DNA of 64,000 nucleotides from Yuukianura sp. NJ FZ-2021 (GCA_046563655.1 CM102290.1:14136001-14200000); one strand, 5' to 3'; shown: positions 19,698 to 50,998, numbered from the stretch's first letter. Made by a program: numbers and translations. Notes: a model not told the origin generated them from the sequence alone.

Positions 19698-20663
19698 ATG
19701 GCTGACAAAAGGTCAGGGGTCACCGGAACTGGAAAGAAATACAAATGTGACCAATGTCACAAACAGTTCAACAGTGCACGAAACCTACGTCGACATTCCG
19801 TAGTGCACTTGGATGTTCGGCCATTCAGTTGCTCTAGATGCCCAAAAACATTCAACCAGAAAGGTCAACTTACACGGCACATGAAAGGTCACACGTACGA
19901 GGGATTGGTCGAATGCAGTCACTGCAAAAACAAATTCAAATCAAATGGAGAACTCAACAAACATCTTATCATACACACAAAAGTAAGCAAATTCACATGT
20001 ACAACCTGCAACTATGCTGCACAGTCAAAATGGCATTTGGACAACCATGTTGCAACACACACAAATGAACGTCGTTTCCAGTGTACGGAGTGCCAACAGC
20101 GATTTACAAGGGACAGTCATCTGAAGCTGCATCTGAGGATCCACACTGGAGACAAGCAATTCCAGTGCAACATCTGCACATACGCAGCCATAAGGAAAGA
20201 GCTTCTGGACATCCACATGCGACAACACACACATGAGAAATCATTTGCATGTGTGTTGTGCACAGCCACATTCAAGTCACAAGGTACTTTGAAGTACCAC
20301 ATGGGGATCCACACTGGAGAGAAACCACATACATGCAAGGAATGTGGCAAAGGATTCATTATGTCCAGCGCATTGAAGAATCATGTGAAGATGCATGCGG
20401 GAGTGAAGGATTTCGAGTGCACAGTGTGCCACAAGAAGTTCACAAAGAAATCAACACTCACTGAGCATGCGCGTGTCCATTCTGGAGAGAAGCCTTTTAC
20501 ATGTAAGTTCTGCGACAAAGCATTTGGACGTAGGGGTACTTTGACCTGCCACATGCGAATCCATGTGAATGAGAAACCGTGTAGTTGTGGCAGTTGCAAG
20601 GCAGAGTTTAAACGTAAACTCCCTCTACGTCGTCACCAGGAAGAATGCTGCGTCGACGCATAA
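19698..20663 (+). CDS. C2H2 ZNF array copy 1 (321 aa, 10 C2H2 + 1 C2HC)
   Basis: Repeated CxxC-x12-HxxxH units with TGEKP-like linkers; ends HQEECCVDA. The most divergent full-length copy. Confidence 0.93.
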   Translation: MADKRSGVTGTGKKYKCDQCHKQFNSARNLRRHSVVHLDVRPFSCSRCPKTFNQKGQLTRHMKGHTYEGLVECSHCKNKFKSNGELNKHLIIHTKVSKFTCTTCNYAAQSKWHLDNHVATHTNERRFQCTECQQRFTRDSHLKLHLRIHTGDKQFQCNICTYAAIRKELLDIHMRQHTHEKSFACVLCTATFKSQGTLKYHMGIHTGEKPHTCKECGKGFIMSSALKNHVKMHAGVKDFECTVCHKKFTKKSTLTEHARVHSGEKPFTCKFCDKAFGRRGTLTCHMRIHVNEKPCSCGSCKAEFKRKLPLRRHQEECCVDA

Positions 20664-21485
20664 GTTACAAATTGTGTCCAATCAAATCATCTCATTTGGT
20701 TAGTTAATCTAGGAGCTGTTACATAACTTAAGTTAGTCTGTTATTGAAATAAAGTTTACTATTGCATTCATGAACTGTAGCACACAAATTTTCCACTCTG
20801 ATTTTCTGTTTAAATTCTATTATTAGTTGAATTTGTTGATTAGTTAATGTTGTTGTAGGAATAATTGAATTTAGTAGGTTTAGTCCACTGACATCCTAGT
20901 ATTCTTATACAATTTCTGTTTGCAGGTCACTGACCTCTACACAAATTCAAAATCCAGCTCACAATGTAAATAAAAATAAAAATAAATTTTCCATCATGAA
21001 TCATAAGCAAAATATATCTTAATGTTGCTTCGTCGTTTCAAATTTAACTTCAAGTAATAACACCTAAATAATTTCCAAGTTTCCACATTCTGTTTTACTC
21101 TGTTTTTGTGTCGCATTGGTTCAGATTTTAGAAAATCCATAAGTTTTTTTTATGTAATCAAAAAAATGCAGTTTTGTATGGGATTTTTGTGTATGATGTG
21201 ATAACAGTTTCGGAAGGAAAGGAGCCTTTTTGTCCAGTTAGAAGAGTAGAAGCATCAGAGTGGGAAGGACGTTTGCTTTGTTACTCTCGCAAGACTAGGT
21301 CACTGGTCAAAGTCACATCACTGGAGGTCAAGGTCACATCACTTCAGGCCAAGGTCACGCAGTCAGAGGTCAAATTAGGTAAGGATAAAGGCAATTCTTG
21401 AATATCAGCTTCACCAACGTTCAAAAAACGTTAAGAACGAAAAATTTGAAGAACAAGAAGTCATTCGTTTTGTCTTTGACCGTAG

Positions 21486-22109
21486 ATGGCCAGTGCCGAG
21501 TCAAACATGGAAGGTCAAAGGTCAAATGTCGCTGAAGCCCCGGCAAAATTCGAATGTCACCAGTGTCACAAGGTACTCAAGTCAGTACAAACTCTACGTT
21601 CGCATGCCGCAGTCCACTCGAATGTACGGCCATTCAGCTGCTCTAGATGCCCCAAAGCATACAAGTGGAAATATCAACTTACAGTTCACATGAAAGGTCA
21701 CACCATGGAGGGATGGTTTGAATGCGAACATTGCAACAAGAAGTGCAAAACAAAGTCAGCACTCAACTCGCATCTCATAATACACACAAACGTAAGCAAA
21801 TTCACATGCACAGTGTGCAACTATGCTGCTCAAACGCAGAGAGGTTTAAACAACCACTATGTAACACACACAAGGGAACGCTGGTTTGAGTGTGCGCAGT
21901 GTCAAAAGACTTTTACGCAGGACGGTAGTCTAAAGACACACATGTGGATTCATGCGGAAGTGAAACCATTTAAGTGCAGTTTCTGTCAATATGCATCCAT
22001 CCAGAAACGAAGTATGGAGAACCACATGAGAAAACACGCCAATGAGCGGCCATTGCCTGCTGAGCTGTCTGACAAACCCAAACGGAAATGCAGTTGCATT
22101 ATTTTGTAA
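21486..22109 (+). CDS. C2H2 ZNF array copy 2 (207 aa, 6 fingers, unique polybasic CaaX tail)
   Basis: Fingers 1-6 are homologous to the other copies but more diverged; ends DKPKRKCSCIIL*. Confidence 0.85.
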   Translation: MASAESNMEGQRSNVAEAPAKFECHQCHKVLKSVQTLRSHAAVHSNVRPFSCSRCPKAYKWKYQLTVHMKGHTMEGWFECEHCNKKCKTKSALNSHLIIHTNVSKFTCTVCNYAAQTQRGLNNHYVTHTRERWFECAQCQKTFTQDGSLKTHMWIHAEVKPFKCSFCQYASIQKRSMENHMRKHANERPLPAELSDKPKRKCSCIIL

Positions 22110-23192
22110 AGTAAACATTGTTTAGTTTAATTAGTTATTTCATTTTATTAGTTAGTTAAATTGAAGTTAGTTAATTCTTAAACATTGATTTGTTGATGGC
22201 GATTCTCAGTGTTCGTGGTAGAGCTCGTAACTTTTTCATTTTTTTATGCTTTCTGGGATGATTAACTTGCTCAATTAATTTTTTAGTTAATCAATCGTAG
22301 TTAAATTAATTACTAATTCATGATTGATTAATTGTGTTAAGTTTTAGATTTTTTTAGATTTTGAAATTTTAGGAAGTGACGTAAAGTGTAGAACTCATTT
22401 GCTCAAATAATTTCTGTTTTGAAGTCAATGACGTCTGGACTCAGCGTCCAGTTCAAAATGTTAAATAAAAATTTACTAACTCTTTTAGCATCAAAAGGAA
22501 TTATGAGTTGTTTTGTGGTTTCAAATTATTTCAAAAGATTTGACTCATCTCAAAATTTTACATTTCTGTTTTTTTTTCGTGGAGGTAATTTTTTCATGTT
22601 TAATTACTTTTGCAATGCATGAGCTTATAAGATTGGGTAAATCAAGAGAACGAGAATTTTAATTTAAAAATTTCAATTTTCCGTTCCAAAAAGTAATGCC
22701 AAATGTAAATGGATTGGAAGATATGAAATGCTCTGCAAATGTGAAATCAATTGGCAAATCTTGTGATTCGCGAGGTTACACGTTTTTATCAAAATTCTGA
22801 GTTTTTGGAAAATGTAAAATCCTGATTTTTTGTGACTGATGCCATGTCAGTTTTCCTGGAAGATGAGCCTTCGTCCAGTCAGAGGCAGAGAAGCAGCAGA
22901 GCAGGATAGACGCTTACAGTGTTACTCTTGGAAAACAAGGTCAGAGGTCACGGTCACACCACTGGAGGTCAACGTCACACCAGTAGAGGTCAACGTCACA
23001 CCACTGGAGGTCAAGTGTACATTCACTTCCGATTGACAGAACAACAAGCTTTGTACACTTCATTGTTGGACTAACGAAAAACCTGTGATTTTGTGCTTGA
23101 AATAGTATAATTTACTTTAAAGAATATGGAAAGAGTAATTACTAATAATTCTTGTTTTGTTTAGGTACTAAAAAGAACCTAGCTGAGGCAAA

Positions 23193-24158
23193 ATGGCTGC
23201 CAGAAGGTCAGAGGTCACTGGAACTGGAAACAAATACGAATGCCATCAATGTCACAAGCATTTCAAAAGTGCAGCAAACCTACGAAAGCATTCCGTGCTC
23301 CACTTGGATGTTCGACCATTCAGTTGCTCTAGATGCCCAAAAACATTCAACAGGCAAGATAATCTTACGATTCACATGCGAGGACACACGTATGAGGGAT
23401 TGGTTGAATGCAGTTACTGCAAAAACAAATTCAAATCAAATGGAGCACTCAAGGAACACCTCATCATCCACACAAAAGTAAGCAAATTCACATGCACAAT
23501 CTGCAACTATGCTGCACAGTCAAAGAGGAGGTTAAACGACCATGTTGCAACACACACAAATGAACGTCGTTTCCAGTGCACGGAGTGTCATAAGCGATTT
23601 ACAAGAGAGGACAGTCTGAAGATGCATCTGAGGATCCACACTGGAGACAAGCGATTCCAGTGCAACTTATGCACTTATGCAGCCATAAAGAGAGAGCATC
23701 TTGACATCCACATGCGACAACACACGAATGAGAGACCATACGCATGTGTGTTGTGCACAGCCACATTCAAGCAACAAAGTGTGTTGAAGTACCACATGGG
23801 GATCCACACTAGGGAGAAACCACACCCATGCAAGGAATGTGGCAAGGAATTCAGCACTTCCACTGCATTGACGTATCATGTGAAGATGCATGCGGGAGTG
23901 AAGGACTTCGAGTGCACAGTGTGCCACAACAAGTTCAGAGAGAAATCAGCACTCACTAAGCATGCGCGTATCCATACTGGAGAGAAGCCATTTGCGTGTA
24001 AGTTCTGCGACAAAGCATTTGCACGAAGGGATACTTTGAACATCCACCTTCGCATCCACTTGAATGAGAAGCCGTTTAGTTGTGGGAGGTGCCAGGCAGA
24101 GTTCAGATACAAAAGCAATTTGTTGCGTCATCGGGAACAATGCTGCGTCGATGCATAA
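23193..24158 (+). CDS. C2H2 ZNF array copy 3 (321 aa)
   Basis: Intact 11-finger ORF ending CCVDA. Confidence 0.93.
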   Translation: MAARRSEVTGTGNKYECHQCHKHFKSAANLRKHSVLHLDVRPFSCSRCPKTFNRQDNLTIHMRGHTYEGLVECSYCKNKFKSNGALKEHLIIHTKVSKFTCTICNYAAQSKRRLNDHVATHTNERRFQCTECHKRFTREDSLKMHLRIHTGDKRFQCNLCTYAAIKREHLDIHMRQHTNERPYACVLCTATFKQQSVLKYHMGIHTREKPHPCKECGKEFSTSTALTYHVKMHAGVKDFECTVCHNKFREKSALTKHARIHTGEKPFACKFCDKAFARRDTLNIHLRIHLNEKPFSCGRCQAEFRYKSNLLRHREQCCVDA

Positions 24159-25144
24159 GTTACAAATTCTGTCCAATCAAATCACTTGTTAGTTTGTTAG
24201 TTACTGCTATAACGCAGAAGGTGTAGTTACATAACTTAGGCTATTTTGTTGCACTATAGCTTACCTAAGGTCTGTTAAGTCTTAGGTATAATAGTAATTG
24301 TATAAATAGTATATAATTATATATAATTATATTAATATGCTCATTTGGTGCATCTCCCACTCATGACAAACAGCACATAACTTTCCCTCTGTTTCTCTGT
24401 TTCAATTTGATTAGTTCATTTGTTGTTTAGTTAATGTTGGTGTCGGAATAATTGAATTTAGCAGTTTAGTCCACTGATAACCATCACTCAAGTATTCTCG
24501 TGTAATTTCTGTTTTGAGGTCACTGACCTCTACACAAATTCAAAATCCAGTTCGAAATGTAAATAAAAATTCATAGTGTTCTTTGCAGCATAAAAAACTT
24601 GTGTGCTGTTTCGTGGTTTCAAATTATTTAAAACAGTTTGAGTAATTTCCAAATTTTACAATTCTGTTTTTTTTTATTTATACGTAATTTTTTTTCAATT
24701 TCAGTTAACAACTCGAAACCTAGAGAACAAGATTCTTGTAATCTCAAAAATTTAAATTCTCTGTTGCAAAAATTAAGTAAAATGTACAAATACATTATAA
24801 TATATGAAATGCTCTGCAAAGCTTGGCAATTCTTGTGATCCGCGAAGTTACAACTTTTTAACAAAACTATGAATTTTTGCAAGATGCAAAAAATCCTGTT
24901 TTGTGTGATGCCATGACAGTTTTCTTGGAGGGAAGAAGAGCCTTCGTCCAGTCAGAGGCCGAGAAGCATCAGAGCGGACAAGACGCTTCGAGTGTTTCTC
25001 TCGCAAGACAAGGTCAGAGGTCAAGGTCACGCAGGAAGAGGTCAAGGTCACATTTAGTTTTGATTGACTGCACATCAGCTTAGCTTTGGACACTTCATCG
25101 TTGGAGACAGCAAATACAGGTTAGGAAAATACGAAACACTTTGT

Positions 25145-25528
25145 GCTCTAAATCCTGATTTTAAAACCGAATTTTTGACGGATTCCGAGAAAACGAAATC
25201 CGGATTCCAAAATTTTGAATCCCGATTTTCTATTTGAGGGGATTGGCGGTAGTGGAAAATTGGATTTTCAGGGAAAAAAAAAGATTTAAATATAAATGTT
25301 AAAAAAAAATTTTTTTTCAAAGTAAATAGTCGTATATCGTCCATATATATTCTATATTTACGCTTTAGTGTTTAAAACTCATATATGCCATTATAAAATT
25401 CAAAAATTTCCTTATGGAAGTTTACCAAATACCCCAAAAATCCGAATCCGAAACCGGATTTGGCCACCAGAAATCCGCATAAATCCGAAATCCGGATTTT
25501 TGGAAATCGTACGGATTTGAGAGCCCTG
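25145..25528. mobile_element. hAT-like MITE remnant inserted upstream of ZNF copy 4
   Basis: Absent from paralogous units (they read TTTTGTGCTGGAGGTGTAAC here). Right end reverse-complements to CAGGGCTCTCAAATCCG; left end is eroded (GCTCTAAATCC). Many AATCCG/CGGATT subterminal repeats. No clear TSD. Confidence 0.6.
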
Positions 25529-25611
25529 GTGTTGGAGGTGTAACTTCTACGGAAAATGTGAAAAAGAAGTGCTTTTTTGTTTAGGTACGAAAAGTACCTA
25601 GCTGAGATAAC

Positions 25612-26265
25612 ATGGAAGGTCAAAGGTCAGAGGTCACCGAAACTGGAAACCAATACGAATGTGACCGATGTCACCAGGACTTCAAAACTGCAGAAACTCT
25701 ACGTGCACATTACGTTGGGCACTTGGAAGTTCGACCATTCAGTTGCTCTAGATGCCCAAAAACATTCAACCGGAAAGCTCAACTTACAAGACACATGAAA
25801 GGTCACACTTACGTGGGATTGGTTGAGTGCAGTCACTGCAAAAACAAATTCAAATCAAATGGAGAACTCAACAAACATCTTATCATACACACAAAAGTAA
25901 GCAAATTCACATGTACAACCTGCAACTATGCTGCACAGTCACGAAGAGCCTTGAACGACCATGTTGCAGCACATTCTAAAGAACGTCGTTTCCACTGCAC
26001 GGAGTGCCATAAGAGATTCACACAAGAAGGCGATCTGAAGATGCATCTGAGAATTCACGCTGGAGACAAGCGATTCCAGTGCAACTTGTGCACTTATGCA
26101 GCCATAAAGAAAGAGCATCTTCGTATCCACATGAGACAACACACGGGGGAGAAACCATTTGCATGTATGTTCTGTGATAAGGCATTTACACAGAAGTGTA
26201 ATATGATCTGCCACATGCGAATCCATGTGAAACAGACGCCAACGCTCAGTTCCGGCAGTTCCTAG
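25612..26265 (+). CDS. C2H2 ZNF array copy 4 (217 aa; fingers 7-9 deleted, premature TAG in the last finger; possible pseudogene)
   Basis: F6 is joined directly to F10. After TAG 26263-26265 the frame continues AEFKCKRTLRRHREECCVDA to the ancestral TAA at 26326-26328. Confidence 0.8.
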   Translation: MEGQRSEVTETGNQYECDRCHQDFKTAETLRAHYVGHLEVRPFSCSRCPKTFNRKAQLTRHMKGHTYVGLVECSHCKNKFKSNGELNKHLIIHTKVSKFTCTTCNYAAQSRRALNDHVAAHSKERRFHCTECHKRFTQEGDLKMHLRIHAGDKRFQCNLCTYAAIKKEHLRIHMRQHTGEKPFACMFCDKAFTQKCNMICHMRIHVKQTPTLSSGSS

Positions 26266-27747
26266 GCAGAGTTTAAATGCAAACGTACTTTACGTCGTCA
26301 CCGGGAAGAATGCTGCGTCGACGCATAACTTTCAAATTTTGTCCAACCAAACTATCTCATTTGATTAGTTAATCCAGAGCTAAAGTTACTTAACTTAAAT
26401 TAATTTGTTAGTTTTGTTAAAGGTTAATTGTTGGTTGTTGAATCGTTATTAACAACTTATCAGTTATGTGATTCCTACCGTTGCACTCCTGAGGTATAGC
26501 CAATTAGTTTTCCCATATGTTTGTTTGTTTCATTTTCAGTAGTTTTTGTTGTTTAGTAAATATTGTTTTAGGAATAATTGAATTTAGCAGTTTTAGTCCA
26601 CTGACATCCATCACTCAACTATTCTCAATTAATTTCTGTTTTGAGGTCATTGACCTCTACACGCCAAATCCAGTTCAAAACGTAAATAAAAGTTCAACAA
26701 CATCAGTACAAATGATTTACTGTTGCTTCGTGGTTTCAAATTATTTCCAACGCTTTGAATAATTTACAAATTCTCGACTTCTATTGCCTCAAATTTCTGT
26801 TTTTGTGTCACAGTGTTGCAGTGTTCAGTATTTAAAAAAAATCAAACAAATCTAGGTTCAAAATTTTGAAATTTTAGAAAGCGACGTAGAGTGTAAGACT
26901 CTACGTCGCTCAAGTAATTTCTGTTTCAAATTCAATAACGTCGGGACTCAACGTCCAGTTCAAAATGTTAAGCAAAAATTTACTAACTCTTTTGCCATCA
27001 AGGAATTATGAGTTGTTGTGTGGTTTCAAATTATTTCAAAAGATTTGACTCAGCTCAAAATATTATATTTCTGTTTTTTTTTTCGTGGAAGCAATTTTTT
27101 CATGTTTAGTTAACTAGCAATGCATGAGCTTATAAGACTGGGTAAATCAAGAGACCAAGATTGTTAATTAACAAATTTAAATTTTCCGTTATAAAAAGTT
27201 ATGTGAAATGTAAATGGATTGGAAGATATGAAATGCTGTGCAAATTTCAAATGAATTGGCAAATCTTGTGATTCGCGAGGTTACACGTTTTTATCAAAAT
27301 CTGAGTTTTTGGAAAATGTAGTAAAATGCTGATTTTTTTGTGATATTTTGTGACTGATGCATTGTCAGTTTTGTTGGAGGATGAGCCTCCGTCCAGTGAG
27401 AGGCAGAGAAGCAGCAGAGCAGGAAAGACGTTTACATTGTCACTCTCGCAAGACAAGGTCAGAGGTCGAGGTCACACCACTGGAGGTCAACGTCACACCA
27501 TTGTTGGGTCAACGTCACACCACTGGAGGTCAACGTCACACCATTGTTGGGTCAAGGTCACACCACTGGAGGTCAAGTGTACATTTAGCTCCAACACTTT
27601 TTGTTGTTGTAGTCAGCAAATTGGTAAGAAAAACACGAAACATTTTGTGCTGGAGGTGTAACTAGTACTGGTTACTATGAAAAATACGAAAACAAAAGTC
27701 AAAATGTTTTTTTTTGTTATGTATTAGAGGACCCTGGCTGCGACAAA

Positions 27748-28713
27748 ATGGCTGACAAAAGGTCAGACGTCACTGGAACAGGAAACAAATACGAATGCGA
27801 CGAATGTCACAAACAGTTCAAAAGTGCAGCAAACCTACGACAGCATTCCGTGCTCCACTTGAGTCTTCGACCATTCAGTTGCTCCAGATGCCCAAAAACA
27901 TTCAACAGGATCTACCATCTTACAGTTCACATGAGAGGTCACACTTACGAGGGATTGGTTGAATGCAGTCACTGCAAACACAAATTCAAATCAAATTCAG
28001 AACTCAAGAAACACCTCATCGTACACACAAAAGTAAGCAAATTCACATGTACAATCTGCAACTATGTTGCACAGTCACAGACGAGGTTGGACGACCATGT
28101 TGCAACACACTCAAATGAACGTCGTTTCCAATGTTCGGAGTGCCACAAGAGATTCACGGAAGAGGGCAGTCTGAAGAGGCATCTGAGAATCCACACTGGA
28201 GACAAGCGATTCCAGTGCACCTTCTGCACTTATGCAGCCATAGAGAAGAAGACTCTTGACATCCACATGCGACAACACACGAATGAGAGACCATACGCAT
28301 GTGTGTTGTGCACCGCCACATTCAAGCAACAAAGTGTGTTGAAGTACCACATGGGGATCCATACTAGAGAGAAACCACATCCATGCAAGGAATGCGGCAA
28401 GGAATTCAGCAGTTCCACTCACTTGAAGAATCATGTGAAGATGCATTCGGGAGTGAAGGATTTCGAGTGCACAGTGTGCCACAAGAAGTTCAGACAGAGT
28501 GCACACCTCACTAGACATGCGCGTGTCCATTCCGGAGAGAAGCCATTTACATGTAAGTTCTGCGACAAAGCATTTGCAAAGAGGGGTACTTTGAGCATCC
28601 ACCTTCGGATCCACTTGAATGAGAAGCCGTTTAGTTGTGGGAGTTGCCAGGCAGAGTTCAGATACAAAAGCAATTTGCTGCGTCACCGGGAACAATGCTG
28701 CGTCGACGCATAA
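27748..28713 (+). CDS. C2H2 ZNF array copy 5 (321 aa)
   Basis: Intact 11-finger ORF ending CCVDA. Confidence 0.93.
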   Translation: MADKRSDVTGTGNKYECDECHKQFKSAANLRQHSVLHLSLRPFSCSRCPKTFNRIYHLTVHMRGHTYEGLVECSHCKHKFKSNSELKKHLIVHTKVSKFTCTICNYVAQSQTRLDDHVATHSNERRFQCSECHKRFTEEGSLKRHLRIHTGDKRFQCTFCTYAAIEKKTLDIHMRQHTNERPYACVLCTATFKQQSVLKYHMGIHTREKPHPCKECGKEFSSSTHLKNHVKMHSGVKDFECTVCHKKFRQSAHLTRHARVHSGEKPFTCKFCDKAFAKRGTLSIHLRIHLNEKPFSCGSCQAEFRYKSNLLRHREQCCVDA

Positions 28714-40811: not shown

Positions 40812-40960
40812 CTTACAAATTCTGTCCAATCAAATCACTTGTTAGTTTGTTAGTTACTGCTATAACGCAGAAGGTAAAGTTACATAGCCTTAGGTTAATT
40901 TGTTCCACTAGCGTACCTAAGGTCTCTTAAGTCTTAAGTATAATAGTATATTAGTATATA

Positions 40961-41760: not shown

Positions 41761-41773
41761 AGGTCATTGACCT
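41761..41773. promoter_or_regulatory. Perfect IR1 nuclear-receptor palindrome AGGTCAtTGACCT (ecdysone-response-element consensus); representative of copies in most units
   Basis: Perfect matches start at 20924, 24517, 26644, 34087, 41761, 42037, 46204 and 51344. Versions with 1-2 mismatches start at 29128, 31971, 36580, 38739, 44146 and 48665. Function untested. Confidence 0.55.
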
Positions 41774-42805: not shown

Positions 42806-43771
42806 ATGGCAGACAAAAGGTCAGAGGTCACAGGAACTGGAAGCAAGTATGAATGCGACCAATGCCACAAACACTTCAAAAGTGCACAAACTCTACGTCA
42901 ACATTCCGTGCTCCACTTGGATTTTCGGCCATTCAGTTGTTCTAGATGTCCAAAAACATTCAACCAGAAAGGTCTGCTTACACGACACATGCGAGGACAC
43001 ACGTACGAGGGATTGGTTGAATGCAGTCACTGCAAAAACACATTCAAAACAAACTCAGACCTCAAGAAGCATCTCATCATACACACAAAAGTAAGCAAAT
43101 TCACATGCACAATCTGCAACTATGCTGCGCAGTCGCAGAGAGCGCTGGACGATCATGCTGCGACACACACAAATGAACGTCGATTCCAGTGTACGGAGTG
43201 TCACAAGAGATTCACAACAGAGAGCAGTCTGAAGATGCATCTGAGGATCCACGCTGGAGACAAGCGATTCCGGTGCAATATCTGCACTTATGCAGCCATA
43301 GAGAAGAGGACACTTGAAGTCCACATGCGGCAACACACGAATGAGAAACCATTTGCATGTGTGTGGTGCACAGCCACATTCAAGTCACACAGTGCTTTGA
43401 AGTACCACATGGGGATCCACACTGGAGAGAAACCACACCCATGCAAGGAATGTGGCAAGGAATTCAGCAGTTCCACTCACTTGAAGGATCATGTGAAGAT
43501 GCATGCGGGAGTAAAGGACTTCGAGTGCACAGTGTGCCACAAGACGTTTACACAGAAATCAACACTAACTACACATGCGCATGTCCATTCTGGAGAGAAG
43601 CCGTTTGCATGTAACTTCTGTGACAAAGCTTTTTCAGAGTTGGGTAATTTGACCCGCCACCTTCGAATCCACTTGAATGAGAAGCCGTTTAGTTGTGGGA
43701 GTTGCCAGGCAGAGTTCAGATACAAACGCAATTTGTTGCGTCACCAGGAAGAATGTTGCGTCGACGCATAA
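42806..43771 (+). CDS. C2H2 ZNF array copy 11 (321 aa)
   Basis: Intact 11-finger ORF ending CCVDA. Confidence 0.93.
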   Translation: MADKRSEVTGTGSKYECDQCHKHFKSAQTLRQHSVLHLDFRPFSCSRCPKTFNQKGLLTRHMRGHTYEGLVECSHCKNTFKTNSDLKKHLIIHTKVSKFTCTICNYAAQSQRALDDHAATHTNERRFQCTECHKRFTTESSLKMHLRIHAGDKRFRCNICTYAAIEKRTLEVHMRQHTNEKPFACVWCTATFKSHSALKYHMGIHTGEKPHPCKECGKEFSSSTHLKDHVKMHAGVKDFECTVCHKTFTQKSTLTTHAHVHSGEKPFACNFCDKAFSELGNLTRHLRIHLNEKPFSCGSCQAEFRYKRNLLRHQEECCVDA

Positions 43772-44901
43772 GTTACAAATTCTGTCTAACCAAATCACTT
43801 GTTAGTTTGTTAGTTACTGGTATGACGCAGTAGGTAAAGTTAGGTAACCAAGGCTATTTTGTTGCACTAGCTTACCTAAGGTCTGGTTAGTCTCAAGTAT
43901 AAAAGTAATAGTATATTAGTTTATATATAATAGTATATGATTATATAATATATGATTATACTTTAATTCCTTCTGTTGCACCTCCCACTCATGAAAAGCA
44001 GCATATAACTTCCCCTCCATTTTTTTGTTTCACCTTGAGTAGTTAAATTGTTGTTTAGTTAATGTTGTTTTAGGAATAATTGAATTTAGTAGTTTTAGTC
44101 CACTGACATCCATCACTCAAGTATTCTTGTGTAATTTCTGTTTTGAGGTCATTGGTCTCTGGACAAATTCAAAATCCAGATCAAAATGGTAAATAAAAAT
44201 TTACTAAGTCTTTAGCATCAAAAGGAATTATGAGTATTTTTGTGGTTTCAAACTATTTCAAAGGATTTGACTCATCACAAAATTTTACATTGCTGTTTTT
44301 TTTTTCGTGGAAGTAATTTTTTTCATGTTTAGTTACTAGCAATGCATGAGTTTATAAGACTGGGTAAATCAAGAGAACAAGAATTTTAATTTACAAATTT
44401 CAATTTTCCACTCCAAAAAGTTAGGTGCAATGTGAATGGATTGGATTGGAAGATGTGAAATGCTCTGCAAATGACAAATCAAATCTTGTGATTCGCTTGG
44501 TTATGCGTTGTTATCAAAATTCTGAGTTTTTGGAAAATGTAAAATTTTCTGATTTTTTGTGACTGCTGCCATGTCAGTTTTCCTGGAAGATGAGCCTCCG
44601 TCCAGTCAGAGACAGAGTAGCAGCGGAGCAGAAAAGACGTTTCCAGTGTCACTCTCGCAAGACAACGTCAGAGGTCAAGGTCACGCCACAGGAGGTCAAA
44701 GGTCAAGCTCACACCACTGGAGGTCAAGTGTACATTCAGTTTCGATTGACCGGACAACGAGTTTTGGACACTTCATTGTTGGAGTAAGGAAAAGAAATTG
44801 TTGTTTTGTGCTGGAAGTATAATTTACTTCCAAGAATATGAAGGAGTTCATAATGCTAGTTTTGTATTACTTAGGAGCTAAAAGAACCTGGTTGAGGCAA
44901 A

Positions 44902-45867
44902 ATGGCTGACCAAAGGTCAGAGGTCACTGCAACTGGAAAGAAGCACGAATGCAACCAATGTCACAAACAGTTCACAAGTGCAGCAAACCTACGAAAGCAT
45001 TCTGTACTGCACATGGATATTCGACCATTCAGTTGCTCTAGATGCCCAAAAACATTCAACCAGAAAACTCATCTTACACGACACATGAGAGGTCACACCC
45101 AGCAGGGATTGGTAGAATGCAGTTACTGCAAAAACAAATTCAAATCAAATGGAGAACTCAAACAACACCTCATCATACACACAAATGTAAGCAAATACAC
45201 ATGCACAATCTGCAACTACGCTGCAGCATCACAAAGGCATTTGGACAACCATGTTGCAACACACACAAAGGAACGTCGTTTCCAGTGCACGGAGTGCCAC
45301 AAGAGATTCACGGAAGAGGGCAGTCTGAAGATGCATCTGAGAATCCACGCTGGAGACAAGCGATTCCAGTGCAACTGCTGCACTTATGCAACCATACACA
45401 AGCAGACTCTGGACATCCACATGCGACAACACACGAATGAGAAACCATTTGCATGTGTGTTGTGCACAGCCACATTTATGCAGCAAAGTGCATTGAAGTA
45501 CCACATGGGGATCCACACTAGAGAGAAACCATACCCATGCAAGGAATGTGGCAAGGAATTCAGAACTTCTACCACATTGAAGAATCATGTGAAGATGCAT
45601 GCGGGAGTGAAGGACTTGGAGTGCACAGTGTGCCACAAGAAGTTCAGGGAAAAATCAACCCTCACTAAACATGCGCGTGTCCATTCTGGAGAGAGGCCAT
45701 TTGAATGTAAGTTCTGTGACAAAGCTTTTTCAGAGTTGGGTACTTTGAGCATCCACCTTCGCATCCACTTGAATGAGAAGCCGTTTAGTTGTGGGAGTTG
45801 CCAGGCAGAGTTCAGATACAAACGCAATTTGTTGCGTCACCGGGAACAATGCTGCGTCGACGCATAA
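44902..45867 (+). CDS. C2H2 ZNF array copy 12 (321 aa)
   Basis: Intact 11-finger ORF ending CCVDA. Confidence 0.93.
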   Translation: MADQRSEVTATGKKHECNQCHKQFTSAANLRKHSVLHMDIRPFSCSRCPKTFNQKTHLTRHMRGHTQQGLVECSYCKNKFKSNGELKQHLIIHTNVSKYTCTICNYAAASQRHLDNHVATHTKERRFQCTECHKRFTEEGSLKMHLRIHAGDKRFQCNCCTYATIHKQTLDIHMRQHTNEKPFACVLCTATFMQQSALKYHMGIHTREKPYPCKECGKEFRTSTTLKNHVKMHAGVKDLECTVCHKKFREKSTLTKHARVHSGERPFECKFCDKAFSELGTLSIHLRIHLNEKPFSCGSCQAEFRYKRNLLRHREQCCVDA

Positions 45868-47225
45868 GTTACAAATTCTGTCCAACCAAATCACTTGTTA
45901 GTTTGTTAGTTACTGCTATAACGCAGTATATGTAAAGTTACGTAACCTAGGTTTATTTGTTGCACTAGTTTACTTATTAAGGTGTGCTAAGTCTGTATAA
46001 AAGGCTAATTGTAGAACTGCGATTCCTTCTGTTGCACCTCCCACTCCTGAAAAGCAGCAGATAACTTTTCCCCTCTGTTTTTCTGTTTCAATTTGATTAG
46101 TTCATTTGTTGTTTAGCCAATGTTGTTGTAGGAATAATTGAACTTAGTAGTTTTAGTCCACGGACATCCATCACTCAAGTATTTCCGTGTAATTTGTATT
46201 TTGAGGTCATTGACCTCTGGACAAATTCAAATTCTAGTTCAAAATGTAAATAAAAGTTCACTTTTCTTTGCATCATAAGAAAATTATTTGGAGTTTCAAT
46301 GGTTTCATATTATTTTCCAACACTTTAAATAATTTCAATTTTCAGTTTCTATTGCCTCAAATTTCTGTTTTTGTGCCGCAATGTTGCGATGTTCAGTGTT
46401 TAAAAAAAATCAAACAAATCTAGGTTCAAAATTTTGAAATTTTAGAAAGCGACGTAAAGTGTAGAACTCATTTGCTCAAGTAATTTCAGTTTGGAGGTCA
46501 ATCACGTCGGGAATGAACGTCCAGTTCAAAATGTTAAATAAAAATTTACTATAAGTCTTTTAGCATCAACAGGAATCATGAGTTGTGTGGTTTCAAATTA
46601 TTTCAAAAGATTCAAAAGACTCATCTCAAAATTTTACATTTCTGTTTTTTTTTCGTGAAAGTAATTTTTTCATCTTCAGTTACTAGCAATGGATGAGCTT
46701 ATAAGACCGAGTAAATCAAAGAGAACAAAAATTTTAATTAACAGATTTCAGTTTTCCGTTCCAAAAAGTTATGTGAAATGTGAATGGATTGGAAGATGGG
46801 AAATGCTCTGCAAATGTGAAATCAATTGGCAAATCTTGTGATTCGCGAGGTTACACGTTTTCAAAATGGGTGTTTGGAAGCTGTAAAATGCTGATTTTTT
46901 GTAAACTTTTTGGACTGATGCCATGTCAGTGCCTCCGTCCAGTCTCAGAGGCAGAGAAGCACCAGAGCAGGAAAGACGTTTCCAGTGTTACTTTCGGAAG
47001 ACAAGGTCAGAGGTCACACGCAGCAAGAGGTCAAGTTTACATTTAGCCACGATTGACTGGACATCAGCTCAGCTTTGGACACTTTACTGTTGGAGTCAGG
47101 AAATTGGTAAGGAAAACACGAAACACTTTGTACTGGAAGTGAAAATTACTACGAAAAAGTCCAGAAATAAAGCACAATGGTTGTTTTGTGTTGCTTAGGT
47201 ACTAAAAGAACCTGGTTGGGACGAA

Positions 47226-48191
47226 ATGGCTGACAAAAGGTCAGAGGTCACTGGAACTGGAAACAAATACGAATGCGATCAATGTCACAAAAACTTCAAA
47301 AGTGCAGCAAGCCTACGAAAGCATTCCGTGGTCCACCTGGATGTTCGACCATTCAGTTGTTCTAGATGTCCAAAAACATTCAACCAGAGTTACCAGCTCA
47401 CAGTTCACATGCGCGGTCACACGCACGAGGGATTGGTGGAATGCAGTCACTGCAAAAACAAATTCAAAACAAACTCAGCACTCAAACAACACCTCATCCA
47501 ACACACAAAAGTAAGCAAATTCACATGCACAATCTGCAACTATGCTGCACACTCACAGAGGAGGTTGGACGACCATATTGCAACACACTCAAATGAACGT
47601 CGTTTCCAGTGCACGGAGTGCCACAAGAGATTTACAACGGATAGCGATCTGAAGAGGCATGAGAGGATCCACGCAGGAGACAAGCAATTCCAGTGCACCT
47701 TCTGCACTTATGCAACCATACACAAGCAGAGTTTGGGCATCCACATGCGACAACACACGAATGAGAAACCATTTCCATGTGTGTTGTGCACAGCCACCTT
47801 TATGCAGCAAAGTGTGTTGAAGTACCACATGGGGATCCACACTGGTGAGAAACCACACCCATGCAAGGAATGCGGCAAGGAATTCAGCAGTTCCACTGGA
47901 TTGAAGTATCATGTGAAGATGCATGCGGGAGTGAAGGATTTCGAGTGCACAGTGTGTCACAAGAAGTTCACACAGAAATCAAACCTCACTGCTCATGCGC
48001 GTGTCCATTCTAAAGAGAGGCCATTTGAATGTAAGTTCTGTGACAAAGCTTTTTCAGAGTTGGGTACTTTGAGCATCCACCTTCGCATCCACTTGAATGA
48101 GAAGCCGTTTAGTTGTGGGAGTTGCCAGGCAGAGTTCAGATACAAACGCAATTTGTTGCGTCACCGGGAACAATGCTGCGTCGACGCATAA
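47226..48191 (+). CDS. C2H2 ZNF array copy 13 (321 aa)
   Basis: Intact 11-finger ORF ending CCVDA. Confidence 0.93.
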   Translation: MADKRSEVTGTGNKYECDQCHKNFKSAASLRKHSVVHLDVRPFSCSRCPKTFNQSYQLTVHMRGHTHEGLVECSHCKNKFKTNSALKQHLIQHTKVSKFTCTICNYAAHSQRRLDDHIATHSNERRFQCTECHKRFTTDSDLKRHERIHAGDKQFQCTFCTYATIHKQSLGIHMRQHTNEKPFPCVLCTATFMQQSVLKYHMGIHTGEKPHPCKECGKEFSSSTGLKYHVKMHAGVKDFECTVCHKKFTQKSNLTAHARVHSKERPFECKFCDKAFSELGTLSIHLRIHLNEKPFSCGSCQAEFRYKRNLLRHREQCCVDA

Positions 48192-48680
48192 GTTACAAAT
48201 TCTGTCCAATCAAATCACTTGTTTGTTAGTTTCTGCTATAACGCAGTAGGTGAAGTTACATAACCTACATAGTTTAATTTGTTGCACTAGTTTACCTAAA
48301 GTCTGGTAAGTCTGAATTCTGTATAATGCTAATTAGTACTAACAATTAGCATTATATATAATAGTATCTATATTATAATTATATATACTTATATTGTTAT
48401 ATATACTTATATTATTATATATACTTATATTATTATATATACTTATATTATTATATATACTTTAATGCGATTCCTTGTACTAAATAACCTGTTGCACCTC
48501 CCACTCATGAAAATAAGCAGCACATAATCCCTTCCGTTTTTCTGTTTCAATTTGATTTAGTTAAATTTGTTGTTTAGTAAATGTTGTTGTAGGAATAATT
48601 GGATTTAGTAGTTTTAGTCCCTTAAAGTTCATCACTCAAGTATTCTCGTGCAGTTTGACTTTTGTGGTCATCGACCTCTG

Positions 48681-49010
48681 CAGGGAGGAAAACCTCATGG
48701 ATCTTTGAGGGGGTGGTCGCCGAGATTGGCAGGGGGTGGGTGGGGGGAGGGGTACTTGGCACCCTGAAAAGTGCACGAAATGCTTAGTTTTTAGAAATAA
48801 AAACGCAGTTTGGAGGCGGATTTCGGCTTAAAAGCGATGTATTTGAGCCAAAAACGCAATAAAATTTAGATTTTTAGTTACCGAACCGCCATTTCGCGCT
48901 AGTTTTTGTAGGAATTTTAACAAAAACGTTGTCAAGGGGGTGGGTGGTCCAGGCGCTTCGCGCCTGGATGGGTGAAACACCCATAGCTCCATACGGGGTT
49001 TTCCTCCCTG
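48681..49010. mobile_element. hAT-type MITE (330 bp)
   Basis: 14-bp perfect TIRs CAGGGAGGAAAACC...GGTTTTCCTCCCTG; 8-bp TSD GACCTCTG at 48673-48680 and 49011-49018; absent from paralogous spacers. Confidence 0.92.
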
Positions 49011-50032
49011 GACCTCTGGACAAATTCAAAATCCAGTTCAAAATGTAAATAAAAGTTCGGTTTTCTTTGCATCAAAAGAAAATTATGTGCAGTTTCATGG
49101 TTTCAAATTATTTCAAATGCTTTAGATAATTTTCAAATTTTGCATTTCCATTGCTTCAAATTTCCGTTTTTGTGTCGCATTGTTTCAGTGTTCAGTAGTT
49201 AGAAATAAATTCAAACAAATCTAGGTTCAAAATTTTGAAATTTTATAAAGCGACGCAAAGTGTAGAACTCATTTGCTCCAGTAACTTCTGCTTCGAGTTA
49301 ACTGACGTCGTGACTGAAAGTCCAGTTCAAAATGTTAAATAAAAATTTACCAACTCTTTTAGCACCAAAACGAATTAATTATATCAAAACATTTGACGCA
49401 TCTCAAAATTTTACATTACCGTTTTTTTTTCGTGGAAGTAATTTTTTCATGTTTAGTTACTAGCAATGCATGAGCTTATAAGACTGGGTAAATCAAGAGA
49501 ACAAGAATTTTAATTAACAAATTTCAATTTTCCGTTCCAAAAAGTTATGTGAAATGTGAATGGATTGGAAGATATGAAATGCTCTGCAAATGTCAAATCA
49601 ATTGGCAAATCTTGTGATTCGCGAGGTTACACCTTTTTATCAAAATTCTGAGTTTTTGGAAAATGTAAAATCCTATGATTTTTTGTGACTGATGCCATGT
49701 CAGTTTTCCTGGAAGATGAGCCTCCGTCCAGTCAGAGGCAGACAAGCAGCAGAGCAGGAAAGACAACTCCAGTGTTACTCTTGGAAAACAAGGTCAGAGG
49801 TCAAGGTCACACCACTGGAGGTCAACGTCACACCAGTAGAGGTCAACGTCACACCACTGGAGGTGAAGTGTACATTCAGTTCCGATTGACATCAAGCTTT
49901 GGACACTTCATTGTTGGAGTAAGGAAAAGAAACGTTATTTTTTGCTGGAATAATTTCCTTCCAAGGATGTGGAAAGAGTCATAATGCTTGTTTTGTTTTG
50001 TGTAGGTACTAAAAGAACCTGGTTGAGACAAC

Positions 50033-50998
50033 ATGGCTGACCAAAGGTCAGAGGTCACTGGAACTGTAAGCAAATACGAATGCGATCAATGTCACAAGCA
50101 CTTCAAAAGTGCAGCAAGCCTACGAAAGCATTCCGTGCTCCACTTGGATCTTCGACCATTCAGTTGCTCTAGATGTCCAAAAACATTCAACCTCAAAAGT
50201 CAACTTACAATTCACATGCGAGGTCACACCCAGCAGGGATTGGTGGACTGCAAACACTGCAAAAACAAATTCAAAACAAATTCAGCACTCAACAAACACC
50301 TCATCATACACACAAAAGTAAGCAAATTCACATGCACAATCTGCAACTATGCTGCACAGTCAAAGAGGAATTTGGACGACCATGTTGCAACACACACAAA
50401 TGAACGTCGTTTCCAGTGCACGGAGTGCCACAAGAGATTCACACAGGAAAGTCATCTGAAGAGACATCTGAAAATCCACACTGGAGACAAGCAATTCCAG
50501 TGCAACTTCTGCACTTATGCAGCAGTCAGGCAGGAAACTCTGAAAATTCACATGCGACAACACACACATGAGAAGCCATTTGCATGTGTGTTGTGCACAG
50601 CCACATTCAAGTCACACACTGCTTTGAAGTACCACGTTAGGATCCACACTGGTGAGAAACCACACCCATGCAAGGAATGTGGCAAGGAATTCAGAAATTC
50701 CACTCACTTGAAGTATCATGTGAACATGCATGCGGGAGTGAATGATTTCGAGTGCACAGTCTGCCACAAGAAATTCAGGCAAAAATCAAACCTCACTGTT
50801 CATGCGCGTGTCCATTCTGGAGAGAGGCCATTTGAATGTAAGTTCTGCGACAAAGCTTTTTCAGAGTTGGGTACTTTGAGCATCCACCTTCGGATCCACT
50901 TGAATGAGAAGCCGTTTAGTTGTGGGAGTTGCCAGGCAGAGTTCAGATACAAACGCAATTTAGTGCGTCACAGGGAACAATGCTGCGTCGACGCATAA
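50033..50998 (+). CDS. C2H2 ZNF array copy 14 (321 aa)
   Basis: Intact 11-finger ORF ending CCVDA. Confidence 0.93.
   Translation: MADQRSEVTGTVSKYECDQCHKHFKSAASLRKHSVLHLDLRPFSCSRCPKTFNLKSQLTIHMRGHTQQGLVDCKHCKNKFKTNSALNKHLIIHTKVSKFTCTICNYAAQSKRNLDDHVATHTNERRFQCTECHKRFTQESHLKRHLKIHTGDKQFQCNFCTYAAVRQETLKIHMRQHTHEKPFACVLCTATFKSHTALKYHVRIHTGEKPHPCKECGKEFRNSTHLKYHVNMHAGVNDFECTVCHKKFRQKSNLTVHARVHSGERPFECKFCDKAFSELGTLSIHLRIHLNEKPFSCGSCQAEFRYKRNLVRHREQCCVDA

What the first reader, a model, noticed from the sequence alone, without database searches (positions are those of the whole stretch)
19698..50998. 14-gene tandem array of effector-less zinc-finger proteins with hypervariable DNA-contact residues: candidate KRAB-independent genome-defence or arms-race repertoire
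Seen: scaffolds and linkers are nearly identical among copies, but the recognition helices (-1 to +6) differ in almost every paralogue. F2 reads QKGQLTR, RQDNLTI, RKAQLTR, RIYHLTV, RQSLLTR, QKIHLTR, RMYHLTI, WKGQLTI, QKNQLTV, QKGLLTR, QKTHLTR, QSYQLTV, LKSQLTI. F5 reads RDSHLKL, REDSLKM, EEGSLKR, TDRHLKM, TDSSLKM, QESHFKR, RESHLKM, TDSDLKR. F10 reads RRGTLTC, RRDTLNI, KRGTLSI, QRAHLTR, ESGTLTR, WKNSLTC, HRGTLTR, ELGNLTR. Only about 14 aa precede F1, so there is no KRAB, ZAD, BTB, SCAN or SET domain. Established: positions -1, 2, 3 and 6 specify C2H2 base contacts, and this divergence pattern typifies vertebrate KRAB-ZNF clusters and PRDM9. Inference: a young, positively selected repertoire recognising fast-changing targets such as transposons or satellites through an unknown effector route.
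Basis: partly seen in the sequence, partly recalled or inferred. Interest (0 to 1): 0.88.

Follow-up and report, generated by a model that had tools for sequence, protein, structure and literature searches.

The report
Fast-evolving zinc-finger gene cluster
An arthropod-like genome carries 14 side-by-side genes for proteins made only of DNA-reading zinc fingers, whose DNA-touching residues have been driven apart by selection; this pattern is real but already known from other animals.

Summary
Window 19698-50998 carries 14 same-strand poly-C2H2 loci and none elsewhere. Nine are 321 aa with 11 fingers. Copy 10 has an extra finger and copy 6 a triplicated three-finger block. Copy 9 has a 2-bp frameshift, copy 4 is deleted and truncated, and copy 2 is an old six-finger member.

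No other domain was found. Pfam matches only zinc-finger models. 13 of 14 copies have an in-frame stop within 30 nt upstream of the ATG. None of 143 spacer ORFs reaches a Pfam cut-off.

Positive selection on base-contact residues is strongly supported. Omega is 1.97 at positions -1, +2, +3 and +6 against 0.27 elsewhere, and omega = 1 is rejected (p 4e-11). M1a/M2a gives 2dlnL 98, or 72 with four segment trees that allow for the evident gene conversion. All 13 sites with P>0.9 are contact positions.

The targets (transposons, satellites), any repressive role and expression are untested. Domain-less tandem zinc-finger expansions in arthropods, and selection on contact residues, are already published. 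This is a clean new member of a known kind.

The parts
19315..51589 (+). Whole tandem array: 14 units of about 1.7-3.0 kb, each with a conserved upstream region, a single coding exon and a spacer
   Evidence: Start-to-start spacing is 1707-3047 bp. Spacer homology reaches from 19315 to 51589 and is all on the + strand. There are no family members outside this range.
19698..20663 (+). Copy 1: 321 aa, 11 fingers, intact; the most divergent member of the main group
   Evidence: dS 0.29-0.43 to the others
21486..22109 (+). Copy 2: 207 aa, 6 fingers, different N-terminus; an old member (dS about 0.94, scaffold dN/dS 0.23)
23193..24158 (+). Copy 3: 321 aa, intact
25612..26328 (+). Copy 4: F1-F6 followed by an F10-like finger. 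F7-F9 are deleted, there is a stop codon inside the last finger (ORF ends at 26265), and the upstream region is unrelated to the other copies. Probably a decaying copy.
27748..28713 (+). Copy 5: 321 aa, intact
30090..31559 (+). Copy 6: 489 aa. The F7-F9 block (252 bp) is present three times at 96% match, at 30639-31395. The F10-equivalent finger has Tyr for its first Cys.
32698..33663 (+). Copy 7: 321 aa, intact
35196..36161 (+). Copy 8: 321 aa, intact; the reference copy for the searches
37358..38321 (+). Copy 9: full-length, but a 2-bp deletion at CDS nt 504-505 shifts the frame, so the ORF stops at 37894. The remaining fingers read on in the +1 frame to the usual stop.
39759..40811 (+). Copy 10: 350 aa, 12 fingers. 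The extra finger at 39885-39968 has no source sequence in the window. One extra residue in F7.
42806..43771 (+). Copy 11: 321 aa, intact
44902..45867 (+). Copy 12: 321 aa, intact
47226..48191 (+). Copy 13: 321 aa, intact
50033..50998 (+). Copy 14: 321 aa, intact
34700..35106 (+). Example (copy 8) of the conserved upstream region shared by 12 copies. I read it as promoter plus non-coding first exon (inference). It contains AGGTCA direct repeats and 1-5 copies of the 21-bp unit GGTCAACGTCACACCACTGGA.
   Evidence: Alignment. 24 motif matches against 0 expected, all upstream of copies and on the + strand. Tandem repeats.
35107..35167 (+). Example (copy 8) of a putative short 5'-UTR intron: GTAAG donor and TTTAG acceptor about 25 nt before the ATG. 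Inferred from conserved splice-like motifs only; no RNA evidence.

Best explanation
What it is. This is a lineage-specific family of genes for 'only zinc fingers' DNA-binding proteins. It has grown and turned over by tandem duplication.

Gene structure. Each unit has its own conserved upstream region and one coding exon. The protein is 14 N-terminal residues, 11 fingers and a four-residue tail.

Selection (shown). The fold is held by purifying selection. Scaffold omega is about 0.27 and the zinc ligands are essentially invariant. The base-contact positions -1, +2, +3 and +6 of fingers 2-6 and 8-10 have been pushed apart by positive or diversifying selection. Every full-length copy therefore carries a different contact signature.

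What that implies (inferred). Each copy most likely reads a different long DNA site. Fingers 1, 7 and the terminal C2HC finger 11 are not diversified. I infer that they act as a common anchor or as a protein-contact surface that stands in for the missing effector domain.

How the array changes (shown). It evolves by unequal crossing-over (finger-block triplication, finger gain), by mosaic gene conversion between copies, and by loss of copies (birth-and-death).

What drives it (not shown). My best guess, at about 0.35-0.4, is recognition of fast-changing repeated DNA such as transposons or satellites, with repression by occupancy or by recruitment through the constant fingers. Diversification of ordinary host gene regulation is nearly as likely.
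For: Structure.
- 14 loci, with 9 in perfect 11-finger register.
- Only C2H2 models match.
- An in-frame stop lies within 30 nt upstream of the ATG in 13 of 14 copies (copy 5 at -123), with no upstream in-frame ATG.
- 143 spacer ORFs of at least 45 aa have no Pfam family at its curated cut-off, and no KRAB, ZAD, BTB, SCAN or SET.

Constraint.
- M0 omega is 0.425. My code's lnL of -5062.136 matches iqtree's -5062.134.
- Cys and His positions have omega of at most 0.03, and the helix +4 Leu 0.08.

Positive selection, 12 copies.
- M1a -4873.71 against M2a -4824.58: 2dlnL 98.3, omega2 5.7 on 4.5% of codons.
- M7/M8 2dlnL 105.3; M8a/M8 91.2.
- All 14 sites with P>0.5 are contact positions. Contacts are 44 of 321 codons (hypergeometric 1e-13).

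Fixed partition.
- Omega at contact positions is 1.97 against 0.27 elsewhere. Omega_contact = 1 is rejected (2dlnL 43.6, p 4e-11).
- By position: -1 2.10, +2 2.03, +3 2.43, +6 1.42, +1 0.78, and all other positions at most 0.57.

By finger.
- F2 4.86; F3-F6 2.06-2.24; F8-F10 2.07-2.72.
- F1 0.97, F7 1.32, F11 0.53.

Robustness.
- With four segment-specific trees, M1a/M2a 2dlnL is 72.4 and omega2 4.3. 17 of 18 sites with P>0.5, and 13 of 13 with P>0.9, are contacts.
- With the nine intact 321-aa copies only, 2dlnL is 59.0 and 13 of 13 sites are contacts.
- The neutral yardsticks agree with each other: 4-fold sites have median distance 0.16 and flanks 0.11-0.19. Contact dN is 0.47.

Mosaic history.
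- Segment trees are incongruent, and M0 lnL improves by 230 units for 63 extra parameters.
- Distances in the coding region and in the flanks are uncorrelated across pairs (rho 0.17).

Turnover.
Against: - There is no evidence of transcription or translation. No RNA run was listed, and that is not evidence either way.
- DNA binding, target class and repression are untested.
- Only 4 of the 10 inter-finger linkers are close to the canonical TGEKP form (F6/7, F7/8, F9/10, F10/11). Not all fingers need bind DNA contiguously, and some may bind RNA or protein.
- The site-model tests use my own code. Branch lengths were fixed in proportion to the M0 tree and only a scale was optimised. Posteriors are naive empirical Bayes. 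Segment boundaries were set at finger boundaries and not inferred.
- Recombination is known to inflate such tests, and four segments may not capture all of it.
- By the cruder NG86 count, contact dN/dS measured on the same codons is only 1.02. The excess over 1 rests on the ML estimates and on comparison with whole-gene or flank neutral distances.
- In Hemiptera the comparable ZF271-like expansion showed no correlation with repeat content (PMC6444547). That weakens the transposon reading.
Confidence: 0.75

Rival explanations
1. The copies are host-gene regulators. They diversified after duplication to control different sets of ordinary host genes, for example stage- or tissue-specific programmes, and not to fight selfish DNA. 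The mechanics are the same (paralogue-specific DNA binding); the driver differs.
For: - Positive selection on contact residues fits neofunctionalisation as well as it fits an arms race.
- The old member, copy 2, kept scaffold dN/dS at 0.23 over dS of about 0.94. That shows long-term retention and not rapid turnover.
- The milkweed-bug paper notes that an arms race need not be the pressure and found no link to repeat content (PMC6444547).
Against: - Continuing diversification at the same positions in nearly all copies, together with gene loss and finger gain, is more typical of conflict-driven families.
- A zinc-finger/transposon count correlation across animals is reported to be independent of accessory domain (PMC10547256).
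Confidence: 0.3
2. There is no adaptive process. The contact residues are simply unconstrained, and gene conversion or alignment and model artefacts create an apparent omega above 1.
For: - The NG86 count gives contact dN/dS of 1.02 on the same codons.
- The array clearly has a mosaic, recombinant history. This is known to raise false positives in site tests (established knowledge, recalled).
Against: - Omega_contact = 1 is rejected (2dlnL 43.6).
- The signal survives segment-specific trees (2dlnL 72.4) and restriction to the nine intact copies.
- Alignments are gap-free.
- Contact dN of 0.47 is two to three times the neutral distance at 4-fold sites and in the flanks (0.11-0.19).
- Under neutrality plus conversion, contact codons could not exceed linked silent sites.
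- F1, F7 and F11 contact positions are not elevated, so the effect is not a property of the position class as such.
Confidence: 0.07
3. The fingers mainly bind RNA or proteins, and the variable helix residues tune those contacts and not DNA bases.
For: - Most linkers are non-canonical.
- Pfam also lists matches to the dsRNA-binding jaz-type finger model.
Against: - The positions under selection are exactly the four canonical base-contact positions: 13 of 13 at P>0.9.
- Neighbouring helix positions +1, +4 and +5 are constrained. This is the signature of DNA-reading fingers (established knowledge; Emerson and Thomas 2009, abstract read).
- The jaz-type matches overlap ordinary C2H2 matches.
Confidence: 0.08
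4. The array is a dead or dying relic that is no longer functional.
For: 3 of 14 copies are disrupted or truncated (2, 4, 9), and copy 6 has one broken finger.
Against: - Ten copies keep complete reading frames of 321-350 aa.
- Scaffold omega is 0.27 and the zinc ligands are invariant.
- The upstream regions are conserved.
Confidence: 0.03

Closest known systems
ZF271-like / APEZ poly-zinc-finger expansions of hemipteran insects (milkweed bug, pea aphid)
   Same: - Arthropod setting.
- Proteins consist of tandem C2H2 fingers with no KRAB or any other domain.
- Genes sit in tandem clusters (4-8 genes reported there).
- Disrupted copies indicate turnover.
- A transposon arms race is discussed as one possible driver (PMC6444547, passages read).
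   Different: - No close sequence relative was found. The best hits among near-length proteins are 27-46% identical generic poly-zinc-finger proteins, so family membership by descent is not shown.
- This array is larger (14 genes) and far more uniform: a fixed 11-finger frame and a single coding exon. The Oncopeltus clusters differ in exon structure and have 3-45 fingers.
- In the passages I read, that paper gives no site-wise selection test. One is given here.
Tetrapod KRAB zinc-finger gene clusters
   Same: - Tandem clusters.
- Positive selection on DNA-contact residues of recent paralogues.
- Finger gain and loss (Emerson and Thomas 2009, abstract and section titles seen; PMC10547256).
   Different: - There is no KRAB domain or exon.
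- Insects are stated to lack a direct KAP-1 orthologue (PMC6444547).
- Targets here are unknown.
FiNZ zinc-finger genes of cyprinid fish
   Same: - Lineage-specific and clustered.
- Positive selection was found with the same M1a/M2a-type test in 4 of 7 clades.
- Only a very short N-terminal sequence precedes the fingers (PMC10547256).
   Different: - FiNZ is a conserved 28-aa domain on its own upstream exon. Here only about 14 residues precede F1, on the same exon, under moderate constraint (omega 0.44).
- An in-frame stop precedes the ATG.
- Transposon repression was shown for FiNZ and not here.
Insect ZAD zinc-finger genes
   Same: An arthropod-type, lineage-specific, fast-evolving zinc-finger family (PMC7655104, search listing and abstract only).
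   Different: No ZAD domain (PF07776) appears in the proteins or the spacers.
OZF / ZNF146 ('only zinc fingers') type proteins
   Same: The protein consists of nothing but about 10 fingers. Several database hits carry the name 'OZF-like'. What is known of OZF itself is recalled and was not checked.
   Different: OZF is a single conserved vertebrate gene, not a diversifying array. Identity to the OZF-like hits is only about 34-42%.
PRDM9
   Same: Hypervariable contact residues and finger-array length change by unequal exchange (recalled).
   Different: There is no SET or KRAB-like domain. Variation here is between paralogous genes and not alleles of a minisatellite-like array. Only copy 6 shows recent internal repeat expansion.

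Membership tests
C2H2 (Krueppel-type) poly-zinc-finger proteins | Tandem C-x2-C-x12-H-x3-H units matching Pfam zf-C2H2 / zf-H2C2_2 above the curated cut-offs | tested here: met
   PF00096 scores 144.8 and 151.5 bits (cut-off 25.2). PF13465 scores 193 and 213 bits (cut-off 40) for copies 1 and 8. There are 11 units in 28-aa register. The last unit is C2HC.
KRAB zinc-finger proteins | N-terminal KRAB domain (PF01352), usually on separate upstream exons | tested here: not met
   No KRAB match in copies 1 and 8 or in 143 spacer ORFs of at least 45 aa on both strands. An in-frame stop lies upstream of the ATG in all 14 copies, within 30 nt in 13.
ZAD zinc-finger proteins | [quoted passage not shown] | tested here: not met
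   No match. Only about 14 residues precede F1.
BTB-, SCAN- or SET-(PRDM) zinc-finger proteins | Presence of the BTB, SCAN or SET domain | tested here: not met
   No match in the proteins or the spacer ORFs.
FiNZ zinc-finger proteins | A conserved 28-aa acidic N-terminal FiNZ sequence on its own exon; restricted to cyprinid fish | tested here: not met
   The N-terminal peptide is about 14 aa and lies on the same exon as the fingers. The neighbouring GCN1 exon is closest to arthropod sequences among named hits. No FiNZ model was available for a direct sequence comparison.
ZF271-like / APEZ subfamily (Hemiptera) | Finger-only proteins in tandem clusters with pseudogenes | tested here: met
ZF271-like / APEZ subfamily (Hemiptera) | Phylogenetic placement inside that subfamily | not tested
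   No reference sequences of that subfamily were fetched. The best database hits are only 27-46% identical, so common descent is open.
Conflict-driven (transposon-targeting) zinc-finger repertoire | Positive selection at base-contact residues among recent paralogues | tested here: met
Conflict-driven (transposon-targeting) zinc-finger repertoire | Binding to, and repression of, transposons or satellites; early embryonic or germline expression | not testable with these tools
   No genome is held for this window, no RNA run was listed, and no binding-site predictor or repeat library is available.

The most novel reading that the evidence does not exclude
This is an arthropod 'only zinc fingers' adaptive repertoire that silences fast-changing selfish DNA with no accessory domain at all. 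It would use its three constant fingers (F1, F7 and the terminal C2HC F11) as the effector or partner interface. It might also be wired to the germline: the array starts 1.3 kb downstream of a KH+Tudor (TDRKH/Papi-like) gene. Every unit carries AGGTCA direct repeats both in its upstream region and at codons 5-9.
Probability: 0.1. Interest if true: 0.6.

Novelty: new member of a known kind. Interest (0 to 1): 0.32.

Why it matters
Two things are already known. Clustered zinc-finger genes diversify their DNA-contact residues, and arthropods have domain-less expansions of such genes. How a protein made only of fingers exerts any effect is not known.

This array is an unusually clean case for that question.
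- It has a fixed 11-finger frame and gap-free alignments.
- Eight fingers are diversifying and three are constant.
- Its own pseudogenes serve as internal controls.
- The shared upstream region is small.

If the organism can be cultured, the array could serve two purposes. It could show whether the constant fingers recruit partners. It could also show whether such families target repeats outside vertebrates. As a discovery in itself it adds an example, not a principle.

Tried and rejected
- Whole genome: none is held for this window. Copy number elsewhere, a repeat library and binding-site scans were therefore impossible.
- Expression: no RNA holder was listed for window 32600-42500.
- Earlier notes of this scan: nothing was found near, by sequence or by words that bears on this. 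One unrelated bacterial note came back.
- Close relatives, near-length search: 2075 proteins had E of 1e-3 or less among 2220 candidates. The 120 listed are 27-46% identical.
- Close relatives, exhaustive representative search: 186,622 hits. The 150 listed are all 817-5807 aa poly-finger proteins at 29-45% identity. The list is sorted by bits, so a short relative at 50-65% identity could lie below it. That search is therefore uninformative on close relatives.
- Hidden upstream coding exon: ATG-ORFs of 51-102 aa cross the 21-bp repeats, but they are read in three different frames in different copies. The shared 31 codons give pN/pS of 0.67, 0.55 and 1.96 in the three frames (7 of 12 copies usable). 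There is no coding signal, so this was rejected.
- 'Spacers are more conserved than silent sites': suggested against NG86 dS. It was not upheld when 4-fold sites were used (median 0.16 against 0.11-0.19).
- Rfam: 0 matches in the window.
- Spacer ORFs: only four sub-threshold chance matches (ETRAMP, DUF3931, Apolipoprotein twice, one ZFHX3 finger model). All are below the curated cut-offs.
- A MAFFT placement of the extra finger of copy 10 produced a chimeric F2. It was corrected before any selection test.
- Structure and complex prediction were not used, because no claim here depends on them.

Full report
**What is there**

The window is eukaryotic. Its left end carries exons of the ribosome-stalling sensor GCN1 on the minus strand. 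For these exons the best named hits are arthropods (spiders, beetles, a termite, Artemia) at about 64% identity, and a few unnamed records reach 70%. No whole genome is held for the window.

Between 19.3 and 51.6 kb lie 14 loci on the + strand that encode tandem C2H2 zinc fingers. A tblastn search with copy 8 finds exactly these 14 and nothing else in the 64 kb. Spacer homology defines the array as about 19315-51589.

On the left, the array is flanked by a gene with a KH domain and a Tudor domain. On the right it is flanked by a calponin-homology exon.

**The copies**

Nine copies (1, 3, 5, 7, 8, 11, 12, 13, 14) are 321 aa. Each has about 14 residues, then 11 fingers in exact 28-residue register, then the tail CCVDA. 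The last finger is C2HC.

| Copy | Length | What differs |
|---|---|---|
| 10 | 350 aa | One inserted finger at 39885-39968 with no source sequence in the window, plus one extra residue |
| 6 | 489 aa | The 252-bp block for F7-F9 is present three times at 96% match; the next finger has Tyr for its first Cys |
| 9 | full-length | 2-bp deletion at CDS nt 504-505, after which the fingers continue in the +1 frame to the usual stop |
| 4 | 217 aa ORF | Lacks F7-F9, has a stop and Cys-to-Ser changes in the last finger, and has an unrelated upstream region |
| 2 | 207 aa | Six fingers and a different N-terminus |

Copy 2 is an old member. Its dS to the others is about 0.94, and its scaffold dN/dS is 0.23. 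Copy 4 has dS 0.38 and scaffold dN/dS 0.26.

**No effector domain**

- Pfam matches at or above the curated cut-offs are all zinc-finger models.
- All 14 copies have an in-frame stop upstream of the ATG with no in-frame ATG before it. It lies within 30 nt in 13 copies and at -123 in copy 5.
- About 400 bp upstream is conserved among 12 copies. It contains a GTAAG donor-like and a TTTAG acceptor-like motif about 25 nt before the ATG. I read this as a non-coding first exon and a short 5'-UTR intron. This is inference only.
- Of 143 stop-to-stop ORFs of at least 45 aa in all spacers on both strands, none reaches a Pfam cut-off, and none matches KRAB, ZAD, BTB, SCAN or SET.
- Longer ATG-ORFs upstream run through a 21-bp repeat, which has no stop in any + frame. 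They are read in different frames in different copies and show no coding signature.

**Selection: simple counts**

Among 12 alignable copies, amino-acid identity is median 0.45 at the 44 canonical base-contact positions (-1, +2, +3, +6). At the other 277 positions it is 0.87. The contact value is the lower one in 66 of 66 pairs.

NG86 counts on the nine intact copies:

| Site class | dN | dS | Ratio |
|---|---|---|---|
| Whole gene | - | - | 0.39 |
| Non-contact codons | 0.068 | 0.254 | 0.27 |
| Contact codons | 0.47 | 0.46 | 1.02 |

**Selection: likelihood models**

I wrote a codon-likelihood program (GY94, F3x4). Its M0 likelihood reproduces iqtree's (-5062.136 against -5062.134).

With 12 copies:

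| Comparison | 2dlnL | Notes |
|---|---|---|
| M1a vs M2a | 98.3 | omega 5.7 on 4.5% of codons |
| M7 vs M8 | 105.3 | |
| M8a vs M8 | 91.2 | |

All 14 sites with posterior above 0.5 are contact positions. The hypergeometric probability is 1e-13.

A fixed two-class model gives omega 1.97 for contact codons and 0.27 for the rest. Omega = 1 is rejected for contacts (2dlnL 43.6, p 4e-11).

The profile over the finger period is as follows:
- Position -1 has omega 2.10, +2 has 2.03, +3 has 2.43 and +6 has 1.42.
- Position +1 has 0.78, and every other position is at most 0.57.
- The zinc ligands are near 0.

By finger, contact omega is as follows:
- F2 is 4.86.
- F3-F6 are 2.06-2.24.
- F8-F10 are 2.07-2.72.
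- F1 is 0.97, F7 is 1.32 and F11 is 0.53.

**Recombination**

Trees for four segments cut at finger boundaries disagree with each other. Fitting them raises the M0 likelihood by 230 units for 63 extra parameters. Distances in the coding region and in the flanks are uncorrelated across pairs (rho 0.17). The array therefore has a mosaic history of gene conversion or unequal exchange, which can inflate site tests.

With the four segment trees the result holds. M1a/M2a 2dlnL is 72.4 and omega is 4.3 on 4.5% of codons. 17 of 18 sites at P>0.5, and 13 of 13 at P>0.9, are contact positions.

With only the nine intact copies, 2dlnL is 59.0 and 13 of 13 sites are contacts.

The neutral yardsticks agree. 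The median distance is 0.16 at 4-fold sites and 0.11-0.19 in aligned flanks. The contact dN of 0.47 is therefore two to three times neutral.

An earlier impression that the spacers are more conserved than silent sites did not survive this comparison.

**Limits of these tests**

- Branch lengths were fixed in proportion to the M0 tree.
- Posteriors are naive empirical Bayes.
- Breakpoints were chosen and not inferred.
- There are no orthologues and no population data.

**Reading**

*Shown:*
- This is a tandem family of finger-only proteins held under purifying selection on the fold.
- It is under positive or diversifying selection on the base-contact residues of eight of eleven fingers.
- It evolves by duplication, finger gain, block triplication, mosaic exchange and loss.

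*Inferred:*
- Each paralogue binds a different DNA site.
- The three constant fingers provide a shared anchor or partner surface.

*Not shown:*
- Expression. No RNA holder was listed.
- DNA binding, targets and any repressive effect.

I put the transposon/satellite reading at about 0.35-0.4 and diversification of host gene regulation at about 0.3.

**Comparison with what is known**

- Positive selection for new DNA-binding specificity among recent poly-finger paralogues was described for mammals (Emerson and Thomas 2009, abstract read).
- It was also described for the cyprinid FiNZ family, where the same kind of test was positive in 4 of 7 clades and knock-down derepressed transposons (PMC10547256, passages read).
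- That paper also reports hundreds to thousands of poly-finger ORFs in many arthropods and molluscs. It finds a finger-gene/transposon correlation that is independent of accessory domains.
- The milkweed-bug genome paper describes the closest match, the ZF271-like/APEZ proteins. They have no KRAB or any other domain, occur in tandem clusters of 4-8 genes with pseudogenes, and are discussed as a possible arms race. That paper found no correlation with repeat content in Hemiptera (PMC6444547, passages read).
- No close sequence relative of the present family turned up. The best near-length hits are 27-46% identical. The exhaustive search is uninformative here.

This is therefore a new, very tidy member of a known kind. 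I did not see the supplements of these papers, which may list comparable arrays.

**Noticed in passing**

- The unit GGTCAACGTCACACCACTGGA occurs 24 times with at most 3 mismatches, against 0 expected. All are on the + strand, 180-300 bp upstream of the copies, with 1-5 per copy.
- AGGTCA-N-AGGTCA occurs 24 times against 0 expected. It appears once in most upstream regions and again inside the coding sequence at +12, where it encodes K-R-S-E-V-T. The upstream stretch therefore looks like a diverged duplicate of the gene's 5' end.
- That these motifs resemble nuclear-receptor half-sites is my recollection and is untested.

Noticed in passing
window 22944-23014, 27462-27576, 34942-35050, 42564-42634, 49797-49864 and single units upstream of the other copies: A 21-bp unit (GGTCAACGTCACACCACTGGA) is tandemly repeated 1-5 times, 180-300 bp upstream of the ATGs. 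There are 24 matches with at most 3 mismatches against 0 expected, all on the + strand and only in the array. Copy number differs between units.
   Followed up: partly
window, e.g. 34933-34945 (upstream) and 35208-35220 (codons 5-9 of copy 8); 24 sites in all: The direct repeat AGGTCA-N-AGGTCA occurs in most upstream regions and again inside the coding sequence at +12, where it encodes K-R-S-E-V-T. The upstream stretch resembles the start of the coding sequence, as if it were a diverged duplicate of the gene's 5' end. Within the array AGGTCA occurs 107 times on the + strand and 14 on the - strand. Any likeness to nuclear-receptor DR1 or extended half-sites is recalled and not tested.
   Followed up: partly
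window 16523-18031 (+): The gene immediately upstream of the array has a KH domain and a Tudor domain, the architecture of TDRKH/Papi-type piRNA-pathway factors. It ends about 1.3 kb before the first unit. The adjacency may be coincidence.
   Followed up: partly
window 30639-31395: Copy 6 carries a recent triplication of a 252-bp three-finger block at 96% match. This shows finger-array growth by unequal exchange within a gene.
   Followed up: yes
window 39885-39968: The extra finger of copy 10 (helix YNQDLKR, canonical TGERP linker) has no source anywhere in the window. Only its first 12 bases match the start of F2. It may have come from a family member elsewhere in the genome.
   Followed up: partly
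window 40995-41217: An 11-bp tandem repeat (GCAGTTTGTGC, about 20 copies) lies in the spacer after copy 10, which is the longest spacer of the array. It yields spurious sub-threshold 'Apolipoprotein' matches.
   Followed up: no
window 69-7900 (-), 9672-10085 (-), 53483-53902 (+): The flanking genes are GCN1 (large exons, HEAT repeats, N-terminal GCN1 domain), a weak beta-propeller-like exon and a calponin-homology exon. Among named hits GCN1 is closest to arthropods (about 64%). This is the only clue to the organism.
   Followed up: partly
window 33664-35195 and the other spacers: The spacers are alignable between units over about 500-700 bp downstream and about 950 bp upstream of each gene. 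They contain an internal duplication of roughly 300 bp and AT-rich microsatellites just after the 3' conserved 100 bp. No Rfam family and no Pfam domain was found in them.
   Followed up: partly
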